64,000 nucleotides of DNA from Bacteroides uniformis. Its GTDB lineage: Bacteria > Bacillota > Clostridia > Oscillospirales > Acutalibacteraceae. The stretch is from NCBI GenBank assembly GCA_963611165.1, contig CAVDQG010000003.1, forward strand, positions 17,827 through 81,826. The letters are read 5' to 3'. The translations under genes and the position numbers were made by a program. This document shows, piece after piece, positions 2 to 33,897 of the stretch. The notes beneath the pieces were generated by a model. The model saw only the letters and a list, made by a program, of their open reading frames with translations, searched no databases and had not been told where the DNA came from. Every line of letters begins with the position of its first letter. Position 1 is the first letter of the stretch.

Positions 2-133
2 AGATTTGACACTGACGATGTTGTTGTGGCAAGCGGCAGCTGTTCGGGTAACTGCTCGGATGTATGCGAAGGCGTCTGCGAAAGGGTTTGCGAGCCTAAG
101 TGCATGCCAAACTGCAATCCATACGTACTGTAA
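2..133 (+). CDS. 5'-truncated small Cys-rich precursor-like peptide, class A (...RFDTDDVVVASGSCSGNCSDVCEGVCERVCEPKCMPNCNPYVL*)
   Basis: My own frame-2 translation runs open from the window edge to TAA at 131-133. It shares the RFDT(D/E)DVVVAS motif with the next gene. It has seven Cys at exact i,i+4 spacing. Confidence 0.55.
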   Translation, partial: RFDTDDVVVASGSCSGNCSDVCEGVCERVCEPKCMPNCNPYVL

Positions 134-152
134 TGTTGAGGGGTGAAGGTAA

Positions 153-314
153 ATGAAAAAGTTAGTAAAACCCAATATGGAGATAGTCAGATTTGACACA
201 GAAGATGTTGTAGTGGCAAGTGACGGATGCTATGGCTATTGCAAATCTGTTTGTCCGTCAGAATGTCACTCTGTTTGTGATTTAAAGTGCAATTCAGTAA
301 CAACAGAAGGCTGA
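153..314 (+). CDS. 53-aa Cys-rich precursor-like peptide, class A (MKKLVKPNMEIVRFDTEDVVVASDGCYGYCKSVCPSECHSVCDLKCNSVTTEG)
   Basis: ATG at 153 follows a purine-rich SD (gaggggtgaagg); stop TGA at 312-314. It is below the ORF-track length cutoff. It is a paralogue of the truncated upstream peptide and has six Cys at i,i+4 spacing. Confidence 0.6.
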   Translation: MKKLVKPNMEIVRFDTEDVVVASDGCYGYCKSVCPSECHSVCDLKCNSVTTEG

Positions 315-427: not shown

Positions 428-574
428 ATGAAAAAGGTTTACAAAACACCCGTGGTCGATAAGGTTAATTTCGACTACAAGAATCAGGTAGTTGCATCAG
501 GATGCACAAGACAGTGGGGATATCAGGGCGATAATTGCCACGACCATTCCACAGTATACGACAACCTTTCTTGA
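428..574 (+). CDS. 48-aa precursor-like peptide, class B (MKKVYKTPVVDKVNFDYKNQVVASG|CTRQWGYQGDNCHDHSTVYDNLS)
   Basis: ATG at 428 with SD agtgagga 7 nt upstream; TGA at 572-574. The 25-aa N-terminus is conserved with the three following genes and the C-terminus is variable. Confidence 0.65.
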   Translation: MKKVYKTPVVDKVNFDYKNQVVASGCTRQWGYQGDNCHDHSTVYDNLS

Positions 575-591
575 TTTGGGGGTGTATCGAT

Positions 592-741
592 ATGAAAAAA
601 GTCTATGAAACACCTCTGGTAGAAAAGGTTGATTTTGATTACAAAAATCAGGTCGTAGCTTCGGGCGGTGGCTGTTATTACAGAAATATCGGAGACGAGT
701 CTTGTGTAAGCGGCGGCGAGTTTATTCTGCAGAACTCCTGA
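592..741 (+). CDS. 49-aa precursor-like peptide, class B (MKKVYETPLVEKVDFDYKNQVVASG|GGCYYRNIGDESCVSGGEFILQNS)
   Basis: This is the internal Met of track ORF 535..741. Start at 592 is chosen by homology to its paralogues and by the G-rich SD (ttggggg) upstream. Confidence 0.65.
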   Translation: MKKVYETPLVEKVDFDYKNQVVASGGGCYYRNIGDESCVSGGEFILQNS

Positions 742-784
742 TTTGTAAGCAAAAACAAAATTCGAAAGAAGTGAGGACAAACAT

Positions 785-943
785 ATGAAAAAAATCTATG
801 AAACACCTGCAGTTGAAAAAGTTAATTTTGACTACAAGAATCAGGTAGTTGCTTCGGGTACTTGCGGTACCGTTTATGGTTGGAGAACACCTACAACGGA
901 GACAACATGCCATGAACAGCATTATAGTGAGAATCAGGTTTGA
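785..943 (+). CDS. 52-aa precursor-like peptide, class B (MKKIYETPAVEKVNFDYKNQVVASG|TCGTVYGWRTPTTETTCHEQHYSENQV)
   Basis: ATG at 785 with SD agtgagga; TGA at 941-943. The leader is conserved and the core is variable with two Cys. Confidence 0.65.
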   Translation: MKKIYETPAVEKVNFDYKNQVVASGTCGTVYGWRTPTTETTCHEQHYSENQV

Positions 944-958
944 TTGGAGGAAGAAAAA

Positions 959-1120
959 ATGAGAAAGCTGTATACTACACCTTCAGTTGAGAAGATAGAG
1001 TTTGATTATAATAATCAGGTAGTTGCGTCAGGTTGTAGCTATGTTTATAACAATTACGACCCGGCTTCAGGAGGAAGCTGTGTTGTAGATCCAGTACACT
1101 CTCGAACATACAAAGTTTAA
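959..1120 (+). CDS. 53-aa precursor-like peptide, class B (MRKLYTTPSVEKIEFDYNNQVVASG|CSYVYNNYDPASGGSCVVDPVHSRTYKV)
   Basis: ATG at 959 with SD ttggaggaag; TAA at 1118-1120. The leader is conserved and the core is variable with two Cys. Confidence 0.65.
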   Translation: MRKLYTTPSVEKIEFDYNNQVVASGCSYVYNNYDPASGGSCVVDPVHSRTYKV

Positions 1121-1136
1121 GCAACGATAATTAAAA

Positions 1137-1166
1137 GGCAGAGGCCTGTTTGGCTCTGCCTTTTTT
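1137..1166 (+). terminator. Rho-independent terminator/attenuator after the peptide gene array
   Basis: Hairpin ggcagaggcc-tgtt-tggctctgcc followed by TTTTTT, located between the last peptide gene and the kinase-like gene. Confidence 0.6.
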
Positions 1167-1208
1167 CGGTAATTGATGTAAAAAAGAAAAACAACACAAA
1201 AGATAGAG

Positions 1209-2336
1209 ATGAAATATTTACTTCCGGGCGTAATTCTTGATTCAGAATTAAAATTGGAGGAATTTTCGGATTTTGAAGCCGAGAATCCCTCTTCTTTTGC
1301 TGTCCCAGAGATAAGCTTAAAGGTGACGGAAGAAGAGCCCACCCCCGAGGTGAAAAGAGCTTACGCTCACGCTCAGATAAACATAAGCGAAATCGAGGGC
1401 GGCTGGCTTTTTTCGGACACGACTGGCGGAGCTAAGCTTCTCGTTTCTGAGGACTACCGAATGCTCACCGCATGGGTGAGGGGCGAAAGAAACATGGAGG
1501 CGCTAAAGACCAATCTTCTTCGCACCGCACTCGAGTGCGCAAGCGTGGCAAACGGCATAGTCAGCTTTCACTCGGCTTGCGTTGAGGCGGACGGCTTTGC
1601 CGTGGCTTTCACGGGCAAGAGCGGAACGGGAAAATCCACCCGTGCAAACGCATGGATAGAGAATCTCGGCTACAGCTTTGTCAGCGGCGACAGACCCGCT
1701 ATTTTCAGCGAAAACGGCGTTCTTACCGTCAGCGGAGTTCCGTGGGACGGCAAGGAGAAGATTTTCAGAAATGTGCGTCTTCCCCTCAAGGCTATTTTGG
1801 ACGTTCACAGAAGCGACAACGAGTTTTTTGAATTAAGAGAGCTCACGCAAAAACAGAAATTCAGAGTGCTCATGCAGCAGGCATTCATTCCGATGTGGGA
1901 CACAAAGACCGCAAGCGGAGTGATAGGCATGCTCCATGTGCTTTCAAGAAAAGCACCGATGCTTCGCCTTTTCTGCGGCCCCGACGGGGAATCCGCAAAG
2001 AAGACGCACGATGTTTTATTTAATCATCCCGAACTAATAAAGGAGGCAAGACCCGAGATGAAGGTTAAGGAAGGATTCACTCTCCGCAATGTTATCGGAG
2101 AGAACATTTTGATGCCGACAGGCGACAACATAGGCAAATTTGACGGAACTGTTATTTTCAACGAAGTTTCTGCATTCGTATGGGAGAAGATGCAGACTCC
2201 TGTTTCAAGAGAGGATCTTCTCGGAGCGATTTTAGGTGAATTTGAGGTTGATAAGGAGACGGCAGAGAAGGATCTCGACGCTCTGCTCGAGAAGCTCTCA
2301 AGTCTCGGACTTATCGACGAAAACGCAACAGACTGA
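1209..2336 (+). CDS. HPr-kinase-like P-loop protein fused to a C-terminal PqqD/RRE-like peptide-binding domain (putative peptide kinase)
   Basis: 375-aa ORF. Its central part (FHSACVEADGFAVAFTGKSGTGKSTRANAW...FVSGDRP) resembles the HprK C-terminal/HprK-related kinase P-loop. The last ~90 aa (FTLRNVIGENILMP...FNEVSAFVWEKMQTPVSREDLLGAILGEFEVDKETAEKDLDALLEKLSSLGLID) match the PqqD-family pattern. Both calls rest on motif recognition only. Confidence 0.6.
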   Translation: MKYLLPGVILDSELKLEEFSDFEAENPSSFAVPEISLKVTEEEPTPEVKRAYAHAQINISEIEGGWLFSDTTGGAKLLVSEDYRMLTAWVRGERNMEALKTNLLRTALECASVANGIVSFHSACVEADGFAVAFTGKSGTGKSTRANAWIENLGYSFVSGDRPAIFSENGVLTVSGVPWDGKEKIFRNVRLPLKAILDVHRSDNEFFELRELTQKQKFRVLMQQAFIPMWDTKTASGVIGMLHVLSRKAPMLRLFCGPDGESAKKTHDVLFNHPELIKEARPEMKVKEGFTLRNVIGENILMPTGDNIGKFDGTVIFNEVSAFVWEKMQTPVSREDLLGAILGEFEVDKETAEKDLDALLEKLSSLGLIDENATD

Positions 2337-2355: not shown

Positions 2356-4104
2356 ATGCTTACATTACTTAAAGCAAGTTATAAGGAAGATAAGCGTGGC
2401 TTTATCGAGATTTTCATACTGAACATAATCTCGTCTTTAATGGGCGGCATAAGCATAGTCGTGCTCTTGCCGATGCTCGAGCTTTTGGAGGATGTTCCCT
2501 CTTCGCTTGAGGGCAGTGTGGTGGAGGCGGCTGTCAGCACCATGTCACCCTTGATGAGAGTTATTGTTTTGGCTGGCGGCTATTTGTTTTTATTGACGGT
2601 TAAGGCTCTCCTTAGCCGTCAAATGTCGCTAAGGCAAAATGCTTACCTTTGCCGCTACACGCAAAGGCAGAGACAAACTCTCTATGAGCTTATGGAGAAA
2701 TCAAGCTGGCAGTACCTCGCAAAGCAGAAGAGAACGGATCTCATCAATCTTTTCACCTCGCTTTGCGGTCAGGTGACGAGCGGAATTTCCTCTTCAATCG
2801 GTATGCTCTCGAATATCGTCATAGCTATAGTTCAGCTTATAATTGCACTTTGTATGAGCGTGCCCATCACGCTGTTTGTTTGCGTGGCGGGTGCTGTTTT
2901 GATGGCGGTTTTCTGGCCGCTAAAAAAGAAAAGCAAGGCTTTCGGCAAGGAAATGATTGATGTCAGCCGAAATTTCTACTCGGAGCTTCTGAATCAGCTC
3001 GGCAGCGTCAAGGAGATAAGAGCCTATGATGTCGAGAGTGAACATGAGGAGAGGTTCACCAAGATAAACGAGAAGTTTACCACCATGCAGACCGAGTATG
3101 CCAAAGTGAGCTCGCTTCCGGGACTTGTCTATAACATTGCGGCGGCACTTGTTATCGCACTTCTCTTTGTGTTTTCCACAATGGGCATTCACATTGAGAC
3201 GGCAAGACTTTTGGTTCTCGTTCTCGTTTTCTCAAGATTGTGGCCGATTTTCTCAGGCTTTCAGGGAACGGTGCAGAGCATTCAGACGAATCTCCCGGCG
3301 CTCGAAGACCTCGAAAAAGCCATGAGGGAAATGCGTGAGGCAAGAGAAGAACCCGACGACGGCAGAACTCTCGACTTCAAGGAGAATGTCACATTTGACG
3401 GCGTTCATTTCTCGTATTTCGATGACGGCAAGGATGTTCTCGGCAACATGAGCTTCGAGATAAAATTCGGCGAAATAGTCGCTCTTTGCGGCAGAAGCGG
3501 AGCAGGCAAGAGCACCGTGGCTAATCTTCTCATGGGATTTTTGAATCCCACATCGGGAAGCATAAGCGTGGATGGAAATGTTCTCACGGGCAAGGACTTG
3601 CACGCTTGGCGAAGAGTTATCGGCTATGTTCCGCAGGATCCGCTTGTATTAAACGCATCCGTGCGAGAGAATCTCTCACGTTTCCACCCGAACGTCACCG
3701 AGGAAGAGATGATAGACGCACTCAAGCGTGCTCAGGCTTGGGGATTTGTCGAAAAGCTTAATGACGGACTTGATACGCTTCTCGGCGATCAGGGAGTCAG
3801 ACTTTCGGGCGGCGAAAGACAGAGAATAATTCTCGCAAGGGTTCTTCTGGGAAAACCGAGGTTCATAATTCTTGACGAGGCGACCAGCGCACTTGATTAT
3901 GACAGCGAAATTTCCATAAGAAATGTGCTGTACGAGCTAAAAGGTGAGGTTAGTGTATTGATTATTGCCCACCGACTTGCTACAATAAGGATTGCGGACA
4001 AAGCGCTTGTTCTTGAGAACGGTTCAATCAGCGAGACGGGCACGATAGCCGAGCTTATCAAAAAGCCGGGCGGCTATCTCAACTGTATGGCTGATCTCGG
4101 ATGA
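2356..4104 (+). CDS. ABC exporter, fused permease/ATPase, with no N-terminal C39 peptidase domain
   Basis: 582 aa. It has N-terminal TM helices, Walker A GRSGAGKST, signature LSGGERQR, Walker B IILDEATSALD and H-loop IAHRL. Confidence 0.85.
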   Translation: MLTLLKASYKEDKRGFIEIFILNIISSLMGGISIVVLLPMLELLEDVPSSLEGSVVEAAVSTMSPLMRVIVLAGGYLFLLTVKALLSRQMSLRQNAYLCRYTQRQRQTLYELMEKSSWQYLAKQKRTDLINLFTSLCGQVTSGISSSIGMLSNIVIAIVQLIIALCMSVPITLFVCVAGAVLMAVFWPLKKKSKAFGKEMIDVSRNFYSELLNQLGSVKEIRAYDVESEHEERFTKINEKFTTMQTEYAKVSSLPGLVYNIAAALVIALLFVFSTMGIHIETARLLVLVLVFSRLWPIFSGFQGTVQSIQTNLPALEDLEKAMREMREAREEPDDGRTLDFKENVTFDGVHFSYFDDGKDVLGNMSFEIKFGEIVALCGRSGAGKSTVANLLMGFLNPTSGSISVDGNVLTGKDLHAWRRVIGYVPQDPLVLNASVRENLSRFHPNVTEEEMIDALKRAQAWGFVEKLNDGLDTLLGDQGVRLSGGERQRIILARVLLGKPRFIILDEATSALDYDSEISIRNVLYELKGEVSVLIIAHRLATIRIADKALVLENGSISETGTIAELIKKPGGYLNCMADLG

Positions 4105-4156: not shown

Positions 4157-6130
4157 ATGGCAAAAACTAATGAAAGACGCCGAATTTTGCACTGGCAGAT
4201 GGTCAGTGCGATTCTGGTGGCTTACGATCTGGTTGCGGTGGTTTTTTCTTACTTTATCGCACTTTTGGTACGATTTGACTGCAGGTTCTCGCTCATACCG
4301 AGAGATTATCTCGAAGGCTACTATAAAAGTATAATCGTCTATGCGATTATCGTGGCTGTGGTGTTCCAGTGCTTCAGGCTCTATCAATCGATTTGGCGGT
4401 TTGCGAGCTTCGTGGAGCTGTGCCGACTTCTGCTGGCGACGGTGATAACCTCGGTTATCTATGTTTTGTTCGAGACGATATGCATTCAGAGGATGCCTGT
4501 TTCGTACTTCATTTTCGGAATCATTGTTCAGCTTACACTCACCGTTGGCGTGAGATTTTCTTACCGCTTCATTCTTCTTCTTCGTGAGAGAAATTATTTC
4601 GGCACGGACAAGACTAAGCCCGAGGAATCGAAAGTTATGCTTATCGGTGCGGGACAGGCGGGTCAGGCAATTATCCGTGACGTAAGAAGAAGCACTTCAC
4701 TCAATGACAAAATCGTCTGCATCATTGACGACAACTCAAACAAATGGAGCCGCTTTATCGACGGTATTCCCGTTGTCGGCGGCAGAGAGAGTATAGTCGA
4801 GAACTGCAAGAAATTCGGCATTGATAAAATCTACTATGCTATTCCGAGTGCGAACATGAAGACCGAGAAGGAAATTCTCGAGATATGCAGTGAAACGGGA
4901 TGCAAGATGAAGAAGCTTCCCGGTATGTTCCAGCTTATCAGCGATCAGGTCACCATTGCCGACATGAAGGACGTTCAGATTGAAGACCTTCTCGGCAGAG
5001 AACCGATTAAGGTTGATATGAACGAGATTTTCTCTTATATTCGTGACAAGGTTATACTCGTCACGGGCGGCGGCGGATCTATCGGCTCTGAACTTTGCAG
5101 ACAGATTGCCGCACATGAGCCGAAAATGCTCATCATATTCGATATTTACGAGAACAATGCCTATTCAATTCAGCTTGAACTCAAGAGAAAATATCCTAAC
5201 TTAAAGCTTGAGACGATAATCGGCTCGGTTCGTGACGGAAAAAAGCTTCTTGACCTCATGGAGAAATATCATCCGCAGATTATCTATCATGCGGCTGCTC
5301 ACAAGCATGTTCCGCTTATGGAGGATTCTCCGTGCGAGTCAATCAAGAATAACGTAATGGGCACATACAACACTGCCCTTTGTGCGGCTTTGACGGGTTG
5401 CGAGAGATTTGTCCTTATAAGCACCGACAAGGCGGTAAATCCCACCAACATCATGGGCGCAAGCAAGCGTCTTTGCGAAATGGTTGTTCAGTCCTTTGAC
5501 GCACTTGTCAAGACCGGAAAAGCCGACAAACTTCTTCCTACGTTCTTAAGCTGGGCACACACCGAGGATAACGAAGGTCTTGCCGAGAGGCTAAAGAGCG
5601 CAAAGGTAGAGTATGTTGCCGTTAGATTTGGTAATGTTCTTGGCAGTAACGGCTCCGTCATTCCGCTTTTCAAAAGGCAGATTGAGCTTGGCGGCCCCGT
5701 AACGGTCACTCATCCGAACATCATCCGCTACTTTATGACTATCCCCGAAGCGGTTTCACTCGTTCTTCAGGCGGGAACATATGCAAACGGCGGAGAAATT
5801 TTTGTTCTCGATATGGGCGAGCCCGTCAAGATAGATACCCTTGCGAGAAACCTCATCAGACTTTCGGGTCACGAGCCTGACGGCGATATTAAAATCGTTT
5901 ACACGGGACTGCGACCGGGCGAAAAGCTTTTCGAGGAGAAGCTTATGGCTGAAGAGGGCTTGAAGAAAACCAAGAACAAACTTATTCACATCGGTTGTCC
6001 GATTCCTTTTGATACCGATGAGTTTGTCGTACAGTTGGATTCTTTAAGCCGTGCGGCTTACGATAATGCCGAGAATATAAGAGAGCTTGTCGAGGAAATT
6101 GTCACGACCTACAAGCCCGAGAATATTTAG
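4157..6130 (+). CDS. Membrane-anchored polysaccharide biosynthesis protein, CapD/PglF/WbpM-like NDP-sugar 4,6-dehydratase
   Basis: 657 aa. It has N-terminal TM helices, two Rossmann motifs (IGAGQAGQ, VTGGGGSIGSEL) and SDR-type motifs (STDKAV...PTNIMGASKR). Confidence 0.8.
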   Translation: MAKTNERRRILHWQMVSAILVAYDLVAVVFSYFIALLVRFDCRFSLIPRDYLEGYYKSIIVYAIIVAVVFQCFRLYQSIWRFASFVELCRLLLATVITSVIYVLFETICIQRMPVSYFIFGIIVQLTLTVGVRFSYRFILLLRERNYFGTDKTKPEESKVMLIGAGQAGQAIIRDVRRSTSLNDKIVCIIDDNSNKWSRFIDGIPVVGGRESIVENCKKFGIDKIYYAIPSANMKTEKEILEICSETGCKMKKLPGMFQLISDQVTIADMKDVQIEDLLGREPIKVDMNEIFSYIRDKVILVTGGGGSIGSELCRQIAAHEPKMLIIFDIYENNAYSIQLELKRKYPNLKLETIIGSVRDGKKLLDLMEKYHPQIIYHAAAHKHVPLMEDSPCESIKNNVMGTYNTALCAALTGCERFVLISTDKAVNPTNIMGASKRLCEMVVQSFDALVKTGKADKLLPTFLSWAHTEDNEGLAERLKSAKVEYVAVRFGNVLGSNGSVIPLFKRQIELGGPVTVTHPNIIRYFMTIPEAVSLVLQAGTYANGGEIFVLDMGEPVKIDTLARNLIRLSGHEPDGDIKIVYTGLRPGEKLFEEKLMAEEGLKKTKNKLIHIGCPIPFDTDEFVVQLDSLSRAAYDNAENIRELVEEIVTTYKPENI

Positions 6131-32301: not shown

Positions 32302-33897
32302 TCAAAGTTCGATTGCATTCACTGCGGCTTTTTCTGCCTCGAGAAGCTTTGAGTAGGACTTGATGTATTTGTCAAAGCCTTCTTTTCCCTCATTGTCCGG
32401 AGCAATGACCGAGCACTCACTCTTTGCGAAAACCTTATTTTCGAGGAATTTCTCGAGGGTTTCGCCTTCGTCTTTATTTATGAGATAGCTTGCAAGAAGA
32501 GCCATGCCCCAGGGGCCGCCCTCGCCTGCTGTCTCCATTACAGAAACGGGGATGCCCAGAGCATTTGCCATAACGCTCTGACCTACGCCCTTTGCCTTGA
32601 AGAAACCGCCGTGACCGTAGAATTTATCCATAGTGACGCCCTCGTCCTCAAAGAGAATGTCGTTGCCGATTTTAAGAGCGGCGCATGCTGAATAGAGAAG
32701 TGATCTCGAGAGATTTTGGAATGAGAACTCCGATTCGGGACTTCTCGCAAGAAGCGGTCTGCCCTCGCTTAATCCCGTGACGGGCTCGCCTGAGAAATAT
32801 CCTATGCTGACGATATTATCGCAGTCGGGCTTGCCCTTTGCGGCTGCGGCAAAGATTGCCGAAAGAGCGTCATAGTAGCTCAGCTTAAAGCCGAATCCTT
32901 CGGCGGCTGAAACAAACATTTTCGCATAAGCGTTTATATCGGACGTGCAGTTGTTGACATGAACCATGGCGCACGGCTTGCCTGTCGGCGTTGTTACCAT
33001 GTCGATTTCGGGATGAACCTTTTTAAGCGGCTTTTCTATAACGCTCATCGAAAAAACCGATGTGCCTGCCGAAACATTTCCTGTTCTCACTGCTACGCTG
33101 TTGGTTGCGGTCATGCCCGTGCCCGCATCGCCCTCGGGCGGAGCGACGGGACAGCCTGCCTCAAGTTCGCCAGTCGGGTCGAGATAGAGTGCGCCTTCTT
33201 TTGTGAGCACGCCTGCGTTTTCGCCTGCCGTGAGAACCTTGGGCAGAATGTCGAAAAGCTTATATTCCATGCCGTTATCTGCGAGAATGCCGTCAAAAAT
33301 CTCTGCCATGTGTTTATCATAATCGTTTATTGCGGAGTCAATGGGGAACATTCCCGATGCGTCACCGATGCCGAGAACCTTTTCGCCCGTCAAGACCATA
33401 TGAACATAGCCCGCAAGGGTGGTCATAAACGCAATGTCCTTTGCGAACGGCTCTTGGTCAAGAATAACCTGATAGAGGTGGGAGATACTCCAGCGAAGCG
33501 GAATGTTAAAGTTGAATTTCTCCGTCAAAATTGCGGCGGCTTCGCCCGTGTTAGTGTTTCTCCATGTGCGGAATTCTCCGAGCTGAGCACCGTTTTTGTC
33601 AAACGCAAGGAAACCGTGCATCATGGCAGAAAAGCCCATTGCACTGATTTTTGTAAGCTTGATGCCGTATTTTTTCGAAACATCCTTTTTGAGATCGGCA
33701 AAAGCGTCCTGAATGCCGCTTTTAACTTCTTCGAGAGAATATGTCCAGAGGTTATTTTTGAGTAAATTTTCCCACTCGTGACTGCCTGAGGCAACGGGGG
33801 AGAAGTCCTCGCCGATGAGGACAGCCTTTATTCTTGTGGAGCCGAGCTCAATGCCCAAAACGGCTTTGCCGCTTTCGATATAATCATTGATTGACAT
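32302..33897 (-). CDS. FGGY-family carbohydrate kinase (xylulokinase/ribulokinase-like)
   Basis: 531 aa with the N-terminal ATPase motif LGIELGSTRIKAVL. Substrate is not assignable. Confidence 0.6.
   Translation of the reverse strand: MSINDYIESGKAVLGIELGSTRIKAVLIGEDFSPVASGSHEWENLLKNNLWTYSLEEVKSGIQDAFADLKKDVSKKYGIKLTKISAMGFSAMMHGFLAFDKNGAQLGEFRTWRNTNTGEAAAILTEKFNFNIPLRWSISHLYQVILDQEPFAKDIAFMTTLAGYVHMVLTGEKVLGIGDASGMFPIDSAINDYDKHMAEIFDGILADNGMEYKLFDILPKVLTAGENAGVLTKEGALYLDPTGELEAGCPVAPPEGDAGTGMTATNSVAVRTGNVSAGTSVFSMSVIEKPLKKVHPEIDMVTTPTGKPCAMVHVNNCTSDINAYAKMFVSAAEGFGFKLSYYDALSAIFAAAAKGKPDCDNIVSIGYFSGEPVTGLSEGRPLLARSPESEFSFQNLSRSLLYSACAALKIGNDILFEDEGVTMDKFYGHGGFFKAKGVGQSVMANALGIPVSVMETAGEGGPWGMALLASYLINKDEGETLEKFLENKVFAKSECSVIAPDNEGKEGFDKYIKSYSKLLEAEKAAVNAIEL

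What the first reader, a model, noticed from the sequence alone, without database searches (positions are those of the whole stretch)
2..314. Class A cores are strict (C-x3)n ladders: 7 and 6 cysteines at exact i,i+4 spacing
Read directly from translation: CSGNCSDVCEGVCERVCEPKCMPNC (7 Cys) and CYGYCKSVCPSECHSVCDLKC (6 Cys). Every Cys is separated by exactly three residues, and the residues between them are variable and often acidic. The leaders are near-identical (RFDT(D/E)DVVVAS). This periodicity would place all the thiols on one face of a helix. It resembles the repeated Cys motifs of thioether RiPPs: thuricin-type sactipeptides have CxxxC, and freyrasin-type ranthipeptides have repeated Cx3D. 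Here, however, the repeat unit is Cys-to-Cys and no acceptor region is obvious. The thiols could form thioether or disulfide ladders or bind metal. I cannot tell which.
Basis: partly seen in the sequence, partly recalled or inferred. Interest (0 to 1): 0.7.

Follow-up and report, generated by a model that had tools for sequence, protein, structure and literature searches.

The report
Cysteine-ladder peptides for radical-SAM crosslinking
Two small genes at the window's start encode precursor peptides with a cysteine at every fourth position; they belong to a large, unnamed family from gut and rumen bacteria that a radical-SAM enzyme probably stitches into a chain of small sulfur-bridged rings, though this chemistry has not been tested.

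Summary
Window 2-133 (cut by the window edge) and 153-314 encode peptides with 7 and 6 Cys at exact i,i+4 spacing behind near-identical leaders.

The maturase is not missing. Conspecific contigs (98.4% nt identity) carry these genes just upstream of the window start: SipW-like peptidase, rSAM (382 aa), ScmC-like P-loop protein, PqqD, and rSAM/SPASM (457 aa).

The peptides belong to a large unnamed family:
- It has 730 representatives at 50% identity, with leader KFEKPxMExVxFxAEDVIxTSG.
- 102 of 248 retrieved members have strict Cx3 runs of 4-7 Cys.
- The true repeat is C-x-x-Z. The +3 residue is the only constrained non-Cys position (V/I 51%, D/N/E 34%). It alternates polar and beta-branched, and it is still present after the last Cys.

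The rSAM/SPASM keeps 7 SPASM cysteines. Among the family models I can tie to a described reaction, PapB scores highest. It meets no NCBIfam family threshold.

Best reading: a leader-guided thioether RiPP with contiguous in-line four-residue rings, like a multiplied streptosactin or freyrasin. The chemistry is inferred, not shown. The helix-face idea is not supported.

Verdict: a new variant of a known kind, of moderate interest.

The parts
2..133 (+). Class A precursor 1, 3' part (the window starts inside the gene). Leader tail RFDTDDVVVASG at 2-37, core at 38-130, stop at 131-133. The 7-Cys C-x3 ladder is at 41-115.
   Evidence: full-length 55-aa gene with identical core in L001, L005 and L010
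138..149 (+). Purine-rich Shine-Dalgarno-like stretch (GAGGGGTGAAGG) 3 nt upstream of the ATG of precursor 2.
   Evidence: read; inference
153..314 (+). Class A precursor 2, complete (53 aa). Leader MKKLVKPNMEIVRFDTEDVVVAS at 153-221, core at 222-311. The 6-Cys ladder is at 228-290, with units CYGY, CKSV, CPSE, CHSV, CDLK, CNSV, followed by T.
   Evidence: the identical protein is on 10 contigs; it fits the 6-Cys family consensus
428..1120 (+). Context: four class B precursors (428-574, 592-741, 785-943, 959-1120) with a related leader ...FDYxNQVVASG and only 2 Cys each.
1133..1168 (+). Intrinsic terminator closing the precursor array (stem-loop followed by a U run).
   Evidence: dG -20.1 kcal/mol, z -3.6, 0 of 200 shuffles as stable
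1209..2336 (+). Context: HprK-like P-loop domain fused to a C-terminal PqqD/RRE domain (375 aa). It is absent from ladder loci of other genomes, so it is probably tied to class B.
2356..4104 (+). ABC exporter (fused permease and ATPase, 582 aa), the likely exporter of the mature peptides.
   Evidence: ABC homologues flank most family loci

Best explanation
The two class A genes encode leader-plus-core precursors of a radical-SAM-modified peptide (RiPP). INFERRED pathway: the leader (MKKLxKPNMEIVRFDTxDVVVASG) is bound by the discrete PqqD protein and/or by the N-terminal RRE-like domain of the 457-aa rSAM/SPASM enzyme. Both are encoded just upstream of the window start. The enzyme abstracts a hydrogen atom with 5'-deoxyadenosyl radical and joins the carbon radical to a Cys sulfur held at the auxiliary cluster, as described for CteB, NxxcB and PapB. 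It repeats this along the ladder. The most likely topology links each Cys to the residue three positions downstream in its own C-x-x-Z unit. This would give 6 (A2) or 7 (A1) contiguous, unnested four-residue thioether rings. A SipW-like signal peptidase then probably removes the leader after the small-residue motif (A/T)-S-G, and the ABC transporter exports the product. SHOWN: the peptide sequences, their conservation, the +3 constraint, the gene neighbourhood, and the enzyme's family relationships and cluster-binding cysteines. INFERRED: that Cys is the modified residue, that the bond is a thioether, which carbon it joins (alpha, beta or gamma), the ring topology, the cleavage site and the bioactivity. 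I put about 0.55 on a multi-thioether RiPP made by the 457-aa enzyme family, and about 0.3-0.35 on the specific i to i+3 in-line topology for all units.
For: (1) Context. Contigs 98.4% identical to the window over more than 10 kb carry, directly upstream, a SipW-like peptidase, rSAM 382, a ScmC-like P-loop protein, PqqD 87 and rSAM/SPASM 457, followed by the precursor array. (2) Minimal module. Ladder loci in other genomes (L015, L019, L020, L023, L031) keep the ScmC-like gene, PqqD, rSAM457, precursors and usually ABC genes, but lack rSAM382 and the HprK-PqqD fusion. (3) Enzyme. It has the CX3CX2C motif plus 7 conserved C-terminal Cys (6 invariant, one in 95% of the 20 sequences), the count reported for CteB, SuiB and TigE (PMC10878394). 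The AF2 model (pLDDT 87) shows an N-terminal strand/helix domain, a barrel and a SPASM domain. Its best structural matches are TigE and then the thioether synthase CteB. Among the NCBIfam models I can tie to a described reaction, PapB scores highest (105 bits over residues 111-423); uncharacterised Cys-peptide maturase models score higher (TIGR04463 164, Clo7bot 136, CefB 135). (4) Substrate logic. In ladder peptides +3 is V/I in 51% and D/N/E in 34%, while +1 and +2 vary. In 6-Cys ladders units 2, 4 and 6 are 95-100% V/I, and units 1 and 3 are mostly D/N/E/Y. The last Cys is still followed by x-x-V(-T). Non-ladder relatives in the same loci also show C-x-x-D/N, with D enriched 2.4-fold and V 3.0-fold at +3. 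(5) Precedent. PapB makes six in-line or nested Cys-Asp/Glu thioethers and accepts C-Xn-D with n = 0-6 (PMC9413430). NxxcB tolerates Asn, Ala, Gln or Asp as acceptor. Streptosactin has a pair of unnested 4-residue sactionine rings (PMC9389541). (6) Odd Cys counts (5 or 7) occur in 27 of 102 ladder peptides, so simple Cys-Cys pairing does not fit.
Against: No mass spectrometry, expression or activity data exist for any member. The enzyme reaches no curated family threshold, so chemistry cannot be transferred by homology. Only 2-3 of the 6 units carry a carboxylate or amide acceptor. The others have Val or Ile, and I found no reported rSAM Cys-Val/Ile thioether among the papers I could search. 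A1 departs from the alternating consensus (Z = N, V, V, V, K, N, Y). The conserved ScmC-like P-loop protein has no role in this model. The upstream genes are seen in conspecific contigs, not in the window itself. About 10 of 248 peptides with the same leader have no Cys, so the leader family is not exclusively tied to Cys chemistry.
Confidence: 0.55

Rival explanations
1. PapB-like chemistry occurs only at the acidic or amide acceptors. The enzyme links Cys to the 2-3 Asp/Glu/Asn residues per ladder (C-x-x-D, or the neighbouring Cys across C-x6-D). The remaining Cys stay free, pair as disulfides or bind metal. The V/I at +3 would then be a recognition or packing residue rather than an acceptor.
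For: The acceptors described for PapB (Asp, Glu or a C-terminal carboxylate) and NxxcB (Asn, tolerating Ala, Gln, Asp) are mostly carboxylate or amide residues (PMC9413430, PMC12373016 abstract, PMC9389541). D/E occupies +3 in 29 of 37 unit-3 positions and D/N in 23 of 37 unit-1 positions of 6-Cys ladders. Non-ladder relatives are dominated by C-x-x-D/N.
Against: It leaves 3-4 invariant Cys per peptide, and the 95-100% V/I at units 2, 4 and 6 including the unit after the last Cys, without a direct role. NxxcB accepts Ala as acceptor, so a polar side chain is not a general requirement (PMC9389541).
Confidence: 0.15
2. The Cys are not crosslinked to carbon at all. The ladder is a disulfide-rich or metal/Fe-S-binding peptide, and the rSAM enzymes act elsewhere or on the class B peptides only.
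For: Dense Cys arrays bind metals. 6 and 4 Cys are the commonest counts. The locus has a second precursor class that could be the real substrate.
Against: In other genomes, ladder peptides are the only precursors next to the PqqD-rSAM457 pair (L020) or sit with other Cys cores (L019, L031), with no class B peptide present. 27 of 102 ladder peptides have odd Cys counts. The +3 constraint is unexplained by this model. The leader is shared with the whole rSAM-linked family.
Confidence: 0.1
3. The enzyme modifies the conserved Val/Ile rather than Cys, for example forming cyclopropylglycine as TvgB and TigE do on repeating four- to six-residue motifs, or it performs another non-thioether reaction such as epimerisation or Cys-to-thiooxazole conversion.
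For: The closest solved structure by sequence (34 bits) and by fold (E 2.9e-17, TM 0.62) is TigE, a cyclopropyl synthase that acts on a repeating TIGSVS motif (PMC10878394). V/I is the best-conserved non-Cys residue in a short repeat.
Against: The GYW motif that supplies the Tyr ligand of Aux I, described as unique to all cyclopropyl synthases (PMC10878394), is absent in 20 of 20 family representatives. Identity to TigE is only 18%, and CteB scores almost as well. Many family members have cores with Cys and D/N but few V/I. The Cys are the invariant feature.
Confidence: 0.1
4. A classical nested (hairpin, type 1) sactipeptide, in which N-terminal Cys link to alpha-carbons of residues in the C-terminal half, as in thuricin CD or subtilosin.
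For: The second rSAM of the locus is closest to SkfB and AlbA (73 and 71 bits).
Against: There is no Cys-free acceptor half. Only 5-7 residues follow the last Cys. With 6-7 evenly spaced Cys, half of them would have to serve as acceptor positions. Ladder loci elsewhere lack the SkfB/AlbA-like enzyme.
Confidence: 0.05

Closest known systems
Freyrasin (PapA) / PapB ranthipeptide system
   Same: A leader-guided rSAM/SPASM enzyme makes many (six) small thioether rings on a short periodic Cys motif. PapB is promiscuous for ring size, accepting C-Xn-D with n = 0-6 (PMC9413430). Among the NCBIfam models I can tie to a described reaction, PapB is the best hit to the 457-aa enzyme (105 bits).
   Different: The PapB score is far below the 340-bit cutoff. 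The freyrasin unit is C-x3-D, with an acidic acceptor in every unit. Here position +4 is the next Cys, the candidate acceptor is +3, and it is Val/Ile in half of the units. A ScmC-like P-loop protein and a discrete PqqD are conserved here.
Type 2 sactipeptides (streptosactin/GggB, QmpB) and NxxC/NxxcB
   Same: They have unnested small rings. [quoted passage not shown] NxxcB makes a beta-thioether with tolerance at the acceptor residue (PMC9389541). GggB and QmpB resemble ranthisynthases (PMC10288494).
   Different: Those peptides have one or two rings, not 4-7 contiguous ones. In NxxC the acceptor lies 3 residues upstream of Cys, whereas here the constrained residue is 3 downstream. I did not test sequence membership of the enzymes directly, and none of these models appeared among the top NCBIfam hits.
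Haft's predicted 'CXXX-repeat' rSAM target systems (TIGR04114, TIGR04117, TIGR04118 peptides with TIGR04115 maturase), and CefA/CefB 'Cys-every-fifth'
   Same: The design idea is the same: a Cys at a fixed short period in a small peptide encoded next to an rSAM/SPASM maturase. The class A peptides give weak hits to TIGR04117 and TIGR04118 through the Cys repeat.
   Different: All scores are sub-threshold (13-17 bits against cutoffs of 50 and 35). The maturase scores 54.5 against 350 for TIGR04115 and 135 against 600 for CefB. The leader is unrelated to those models. I found no paper describing the chemistry of these predicted systems, so they explain nothing mechanistically.
SCIFF ranthipeptides (thermocellin CteA/CteB, Tte1186)
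   Same: They are Cys-rich cores in Clostridia modified by rSAM/SPASM enzymes with an N-terminal RRE and 7 SPASM Cys. CteB is the second-best structural match. The characterised link there is Cys to Thr gamma-carbon (PMC10352776). Here 45% of ladders end in C-x-x-V-T.
   Different: The ScfB model scores 43.5 against a cutoff of 425. The peptides do not hit the SCIFF model. The leader is different, and the ladder is strict and longer.
SynChlorMet cassette (ScmC, ScmD, ScmE, ScmF)
   Same: It combines an HprK-like P-loop protein, a PqqD-like protein and rSAM/SPASM enzymes in one cassette. There are weak hits to ScmC (16 bits), ScmD (12 bits) and ScmE/F (54-56 bits).
   Different: All scores are far below the cutoffs (125, 100 and 400). 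The function of that cassette is itself unknown as far as I know.

Membership tests
CXXX-repeat rSAM target system (TIGR04115/04117/04118) | Precursor scores at or above the curated cutoff of TIGR04117 (50 bits) or TIGR04118 (35 bits) | tested here: not met
   13.4, 16.5 and 16.0 bits for the window and L006 class A peptides; homologues score 15-17 bits
CXXX-repeat rSAM target system (TIGR04115/04117/04118) | Adjacent maturase belongs to TIGR04115 (cutoff 350 bits) | tested here: not met
   54.5 bits, radical-SAM core region only
Freyrasin/PapB ranthipeptides | Maturase scores at or above 340 bits on NF047865 | tested here: not met
   104.9 bits over residues 111-423
Freyrasin/PapB ranthipeptides | Core made of Cys-X3-Asp/Glu motifs (PMC9413430) | tested here: not met
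   Position +4 after Cys is Cys in 80% of cases; D/N/E sit at +3 in only 34% of units
Cys-every-fifth CefA/CefB | Maturase scores at or above 600 bits on NF038107; Cys at every fifth residue | tested here: not met
   134.7 bits; the period here is 4
SCIFF (ScfA/ScfB) | Maturase scores at or above 425 bits on TIGR03974; precursor matches the SCIFF model | tested here: not met
   43.5 bits; no SCIFF peptide hit at E up to 1-10
TIGR04463 / Clo7bot rSAM-SPASM maturases | Score at or above 525 bits (TIGR04463) or 600 bits (TIGR04334) | tested here: not met
   164.3 and 136.3 bits; Clo7bot peptide model 7-8 bits against a cutoff of 31
Radical SAM cyclopropyl synthases (TvgB/TigE) | GYW motif whose Tyr ligates the Aux I cluster, stated to be unique to all CP synthases (PMC10878394) | tested here: not met
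   No GYW, and no G[YFW]W, in any of 20 family representatives
rSAM/SPASM RiPP maturases (general) | CX3CX2C radical SAM motif plus a C-terminal SPASM domain with 7-8 Cys for two auxiliary clusters | tested here: met
   C122, C126 and C129 are invariant. C348, C367, C401, C404, C410 and C416 are invariant and C422 is present in 95% of 20 sequences. Pfam Radical_SAM and Fer4_12 hit. The fold matches TigE, CteB, SuiB and anSME.
RRE-dependent RiPP cluster (general) | A PqqD-type RRE is encoded with the maturase, and several leader-plus-core precursors lie adjacent | tested here: met
   PF05402 E 8.9e-11 for the 87-aa protein. There are 6-8 precursors with a conserved leader and hypervariable cores. 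This is seen in conspecific contigs, since the enzyme genes lie outside the window.
Sactipeptide or ranthipeptide (class definition) | A Cys sulfur to alpha-carbon (sacti) or non-alpha-carbon (ranthi) thioether in the mature product | not testable with these tools
   Needs MS/NMR of the modified peptide
SynChlorMet cassette | ScmC (at least 125 bits), ScmD (at least 100 bits), ScmE/F (at least 400 bits) | tested here: not met
   16.3, 12.3 and 54-56 bits; the 246-aa P-loop protein has no NCBIfam hit at E up to 0.1

The most novel reading that the evidence does not exclude
One leader-guided rSAM/SPASM enzyme links every ladder Cys to the residue three positions downstream, whether that residue is Asp/Asn/Glu or Val/Ile. 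This would produce 4-7 directly abutting four-residue thioether rings, a fully stapled rod. That topology, and the aliphatic acceptor scope (Cys-Val/Ile), are not reported for any characterised RiPP I could find. The conserved ScmC-like P-loop protein would be a new accessory factor of such maturation.
Probability: 0.25. Interest if true: 0.7.

Novelty: new variant of a known kind. Interest (0 to 1): 0.5.

Why it matters
If the model holds, this is a large unannotated RiPP family: 730 representative clusters at 50% identity, from gut and rumen Clostridia and Bacteroidales. Pfam and NCBIfam do not name it. The antiSMASH ranthipeptide rule as listed in PMC13289728 keys on the SCIFF peptide model (TIGR03973), which these peptides did not hit, so that rule would probably miss them. 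The precursor design, contiguous C-x-x-Z units repeated 4-7 times, would give an unusually dense, programmable thioether scaffold. The same enzyme subfamily sits next to very different Cys patterns within a single locus, which suggests a substrate-tolerant stapling catalyst of the kind sought for peptide engineering, as with PapB. The bioactivity is unknown; it could be antimicrobial, signalling or metal-related. The finding does not overturn any concept. It is a well-defined mining lead with a clear first experiment.

Tried and rejected
- A word-index homologue search with A2 alone found only 2 clusters. The family appeared only after going through the rSAM and then searching with a profile.
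- Pfam, NCBIfam and PDB sequence searches gave no family-level assignment for the peptides or the ScmC-like protein.
- Literature searches for Cys-every-fifth, CXXX repeat, TIGR04115, TIGR04463, Clo7bot, OhkG, FlmE, CefB and geopeptide returned nothing relevant.
- Searches for ranthipeptide with rumen and gut terms found only general mining papers.
- Precord 2019 and Haft & Basu 2011 are not held in the library, so the exact freyrasin core sequence and the original CXXX-repeat description could not be checked.
- The TigE (cyclopropyl synthase) lead from the fold search was followed and rejected on the GYW criterion.
- The StsA/StsB lead, from a weak leader hit, proved irrelevant: it is a Streptomyces hairpin Cys-Gly sactipeptide.
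- AlphaFold2 of the precursor alone was uninformative beyond showing no helix (pLDDT 64).
- The consensus promoter/terminator scan missed the real terminator, which was found by folding.
- Long tandem CxxxC proteins P0340 and P0357 in the exhaustive search were set aside as leaderless low-complexity matches.
Full report
**1. What is in the sequence**

On the + strand, bases 2-133 (frame 2) read RFDTDDVVVASGSCSGNCSDVCEGVCERVCEPKCMPNCNPYVL*. Bases 153-314 read MKKLVKPNMEIVRFDTEDVVVASDGCYGYCKSVCPSECHSVCDLKCNSVTTEG*.

The first gene is cut by the window edge. Its full 55-aa form, MKKLEKPNMEIV... with an identical core, is present in contigs L001, L005 and L010. The 7 and 6 cysteines are all separated by exactly three residues.

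Random placement of that many Cys in cores of these lengths gives a strict ladder with probability 2.4e-6 and 1.7e-5. The only other run of at least 4 Cys in the six-frame translation of the whole window is a 4-Cys run in an antisense ORF at 33190.

**2. The surroundings**

Downstream of the two class A genes lie:
- Four more small genes with a related leader (...FDYxNQVVASG) and only two Cys each (class B: 428-574, 592-741, 785-943, 959-1120).
- A strong intrinsic terminator at 1133-1168.
- A 375-aa fusion of an HprK-like P-loop domain and a PqqD domain (1209-2336), and an ABC exporter (2356-4104).

No radical SAM gene lies in the 64 kb window. However, the window starts inside the cluster. 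Look-ups by identical protein found contigs that are 98.4% identical to the window over more than 10 kb. Immediately upstream they carry:
- a 161-aa signal-peptidase-I-like protein (archaeal/SipW-type model, sub-threshold);
- a 382-aa rSAM, closest to SkfB and AlbA;
- a 246-aa P-loop protein homologous to the N-terminal half of the HprK-PqqD fusion (E 1.4e-16);
- an 87-aa PqqD;
- a 457-aa rSAM/SPASM enzyme.

These are followed by one or two class B, two class A and two to four more class B precursors.

**3. Relatives elsewhere**

A2 alone finds almost nothing by word search. The 457-aa enzyme, in contrast, has 1711 homologues at E < 1e-20.

A scan of one genome per species returned 80 loci, mostly gut and rumen MAGs labelled Clostridia, Lachnospiraceae, Oscillospiraceae, Bacteroidales or Prevotellaceae. 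An HMM of the leaders finds small ORFs next to these enzymes with the leader (K)KFEKPxMExVxFxAEDVIxTSG(G) and Cys-containing cores.

Strict C-x3 ladders recur next to enzymes only 49-57% identical to the one here:
- L015: RCTWDCVHVCEVDCKDVCSPDCRYVL
- L020: CSRDCLDVCRGECSSVCEYNCRSVTAAG
- L023: CSGDCIKVCTNECQTVCQSNCNEVTP
- L019 and L031: 4-Cys ladders
- L031 and L032: 5-Cys ladders

A profile of such peptides retrieves 842 proteins in the 90%-identity collection. It retrieves 730 representatives at E up to 0.001 in an exhaustive HMMER scan of 1.84 billion 50%-identity representatives. Of the roughly 250 listed, none has a Pfam domain, and the only source-given names are 'hypothetical protein' and one 'predicted oxidoreductase'.

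Of 248 distinct family peptides retrieved, 102 have a strict run of at least 4 Cys. In an overlapping set of 73 ladder cores the run lengths were 4 (23), 5 (6), 6 (37) and 7 (7).

**4. The real repeat unit**

Aligning on each Cys, positions +1 and +2 are variable. Position +3 is V (39%), D (21%), I (12%), N (10%), Y (5%) or E (4%).

In the 37 six-Cys ladders:
- Units 2, 4 and 6 have V/I in 37, 35 and 35 cases.
- Unit 1 has D, N, Y or Q in 31 of 37.
- Unit 3 has D or E in 29 of 37.
- Unit 5 is mixed.

The consensus is GG-C[ST]G[DN]-CxxV-Cxx[DE]-CxxV-Cxx[V/D/N]-CHxV-T.

The last Cys is still followed by x-x-V/I, and in 45% of cases then by Thr, although no Cys follows. The first Cys is preceded by Gly. 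The constrained residue therefore belongs to the Cys three positions before it, and the unit is C-x-x-Z rather than a bare Cys-to-Cys spacing.

A2 fits the consensus exactly, with Z = Y, V, E, V, K, V, then T. A1 is a divergent 7-unit form, with Z = N, V, V, V, K, N, Y.

Non-ladder relatives, often in the same locus as a ladder peptide (L015, L023), show the same preference. An example is CSSN-CPQD-GSVH-CKQD; D is enriched 2.4-fold and V 3.0-fold at +3.

**5. Which genes go with the ladder**

Ladder loci in other genomes (L015, L019, L020, L023, L031) keep the ScmC-like P-loop gene, PqqD, the 457-type rSAM, the precursors and usually ABC genes. They have neither the 382-aa rSAM nor the HprK-PqqD fusion. 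Those two reappear together in loci with two-Cys, class-B-like cores (L057, L062).

I infer that class A is served by the PqqD/rSAM-457 module, and that the extra rSAM and the second RRE belong to class B.

**6. The enzyme**

- The family keeps the CX3CX2C motif and seven C-terminal Cys (six invariant, one in 95% of the 20 sequences). This is the count described for CteB, SuiB and TigE (PMC10878394).
- The AlphaFold2 model is confident (pLDDT 87.4, pTM 0.84). It shows an N-terminal strand/helix domain (residues 1-106), which I read as RRE-like, followed by the barrel and the SPASM domain.
- The best fold matches are TigE (8VPO), then CteB (5WHY, 5WGG), SuiB, anSME and SkfB.
- NCBIfam gives only sub-threshold hits: TIGR04463 164 bits, Clo7bot maturase 136, CefB ('Cys-every-fifth') 135, FlmE/OhkG 109, geopeptide maturase 106, PapB 105 and the CXXX-repeat maturase 54.5. 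Among the models I can tie to a described reaction, PapB scores highest.
- TigE makes cyclopropylglycine from Ile in a repeating motif. This made the conserved V/I suspicious. But the GYW motif that its authors give as unique to all cyclopropyl synthases is absent from 20 of 20 family members.

**7. Mechanism proposed**

Leader binding by PqqD and/or the enzyme's own N-terminal domain positions the core. Each Cys is then joined to a carbon of the residue at +3 by the radical mechanism described for NxxcB, CteB and PapB (PMC9389541, PMC9413430). This would give contiguous, unnested four-residue rings.

Precedents:
- PapB makes six Cys-Asp links and accepts C-Xn-D with n = 0-6 (PMC9413430).
- NxxcB tolerates Asn, Ala, Gln or Asp as acceptor (PMC9389541).
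- Streptosactin carries a pair of unnested 4-residue sactionine rings (PMC9389541).
- The in-line sactisynthases resemble ranthisynthases (PMC10288494).

Leader removal after (A/T)-S-G by the SipW-like peptidase fits the preference of type I signal peptidases for small residues at -1 and -3. That point rests on my own knowledge and is an inference. Export would go through the ABC transporter.

None of the chemistry is shown. Whether V/I can be an acceptor, and at which carbon, is open. The ScmC-like protein has no assigned role.

**8.

- Thioether: the most likely option, by context and enzyme kinship.
- Disulfide ladder: disfavoured, because 27 of 102 ladder peptides have 5 or 7 Cys.
- Metal binding: not excluded.
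- Helix face: an i,i+4 spacing drifts 40 degrees per step. Pro is enriched 3.2-fold and Gly is frequent at +2. AlphaFold2 sees no helix in the core, at low confidence.

**9. Novelty**

A periodic-Cys peptide beside an rSAM/SPASM maturase is a kind that database curators already recognise: the TIGR04114, TIGR04117 and TIGR04118 peptides with the TIGR04115 maturase, CefA/CefB, Clo7bot and SCIFF. Multi-ring thioether RiPPs are characterised (freyrasin).

This family meets none of those definitions (see the membership table). I found no paper describing it in the searchable library, but many subscription papers are not searchable. Its C-x-x-Z architecture with alternating polar and beta-branched +3 residues appears undescribed.

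I rate it a new variant of a known kind, with interest 0.5.

Noticed in passing
window 428-1120: Four class B precursors share the leader MKKxYxTPxVEKVxFDYxNQVVASG but have only two Cys, 8-17 residues apart, in aromatic-rich cores. Two of them end in Ser. They are hypervariable between strains: near-identical contigs carry 4 to 6 of them, with different cores.
   Followed up: partly
window 1209-2336: A 375-aa fusion of an HprK-like P-loop domain with a C-terminal PqqD/RRE domain. Its N-terminal half is homologous to the 246-aa ScmC-like protein of the upstream module (E 1.4e-16). It co-occurs with the SkfB/AlbA-like 382-aa rSAM in L057 and L062, and is absent from ladder-only loci. Its role is unknown; it may be a second RRE for class B peptides.
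   Followed up: partly
window 1133-1168: A strong intrinsic terminator (dG -20.1 kcal/mol, z -3.6, followed by a U run) lies between the precursor array and the HprK-PqqD gene. The consensus scan missed it because of its loop size.
   Followed up: yes
L004 3007-5248 and window 4157-6130: The peptide cluster is embedded in a capsule/exopolysaccharide locus. Wzz, a tyrosine-kinase-like AAA_31 protein and CpsB lie upstream. A CapD-like Polysacc_synt_2 protein lies downstream.
   Followed up: no
proteins P0307, P0345, P0347, P0353, P0354, P0356, P0362, P0366, P0369: About 10 of 248 peptides with the same EDVIxTSG leader have no cysteine at all in the core. The leader family is therefore not used only for Cys chemistry.
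   Followed up: no
L015-L031 record titles: MAGs from one ENA 'cleanbin' project carry loci with the same architecture and 51-57% identical rSAMs. Yet they are labelled Prevotella, Bacteroidaceae, Holdemanella, Coriobacteriaceae, Faecalibacterium and Lachnospiraceae. Either the labels are unreliable or the cluster moves horizontally.
   Followed up: no
proteins P0340 (289 aa) and P0357 (764 aa): Long proteins made of tandem CxxxCxxx repeats (CSAWCTHV..., CQKECQKI...) without the leader matched the ladder part of the profile. They look like low-complexity, possibly eukaryotic, false positives.
   Followed up: no
window 33190-33228 (+): CAFFCEHACVFAC is the only other Cx3 run (4 Cys) in the six-frame translation of the window. 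It lies in an ORF antisense to the 531-aa gene at 32302-33897, and I take it as a chance match.
   Followed up: partly
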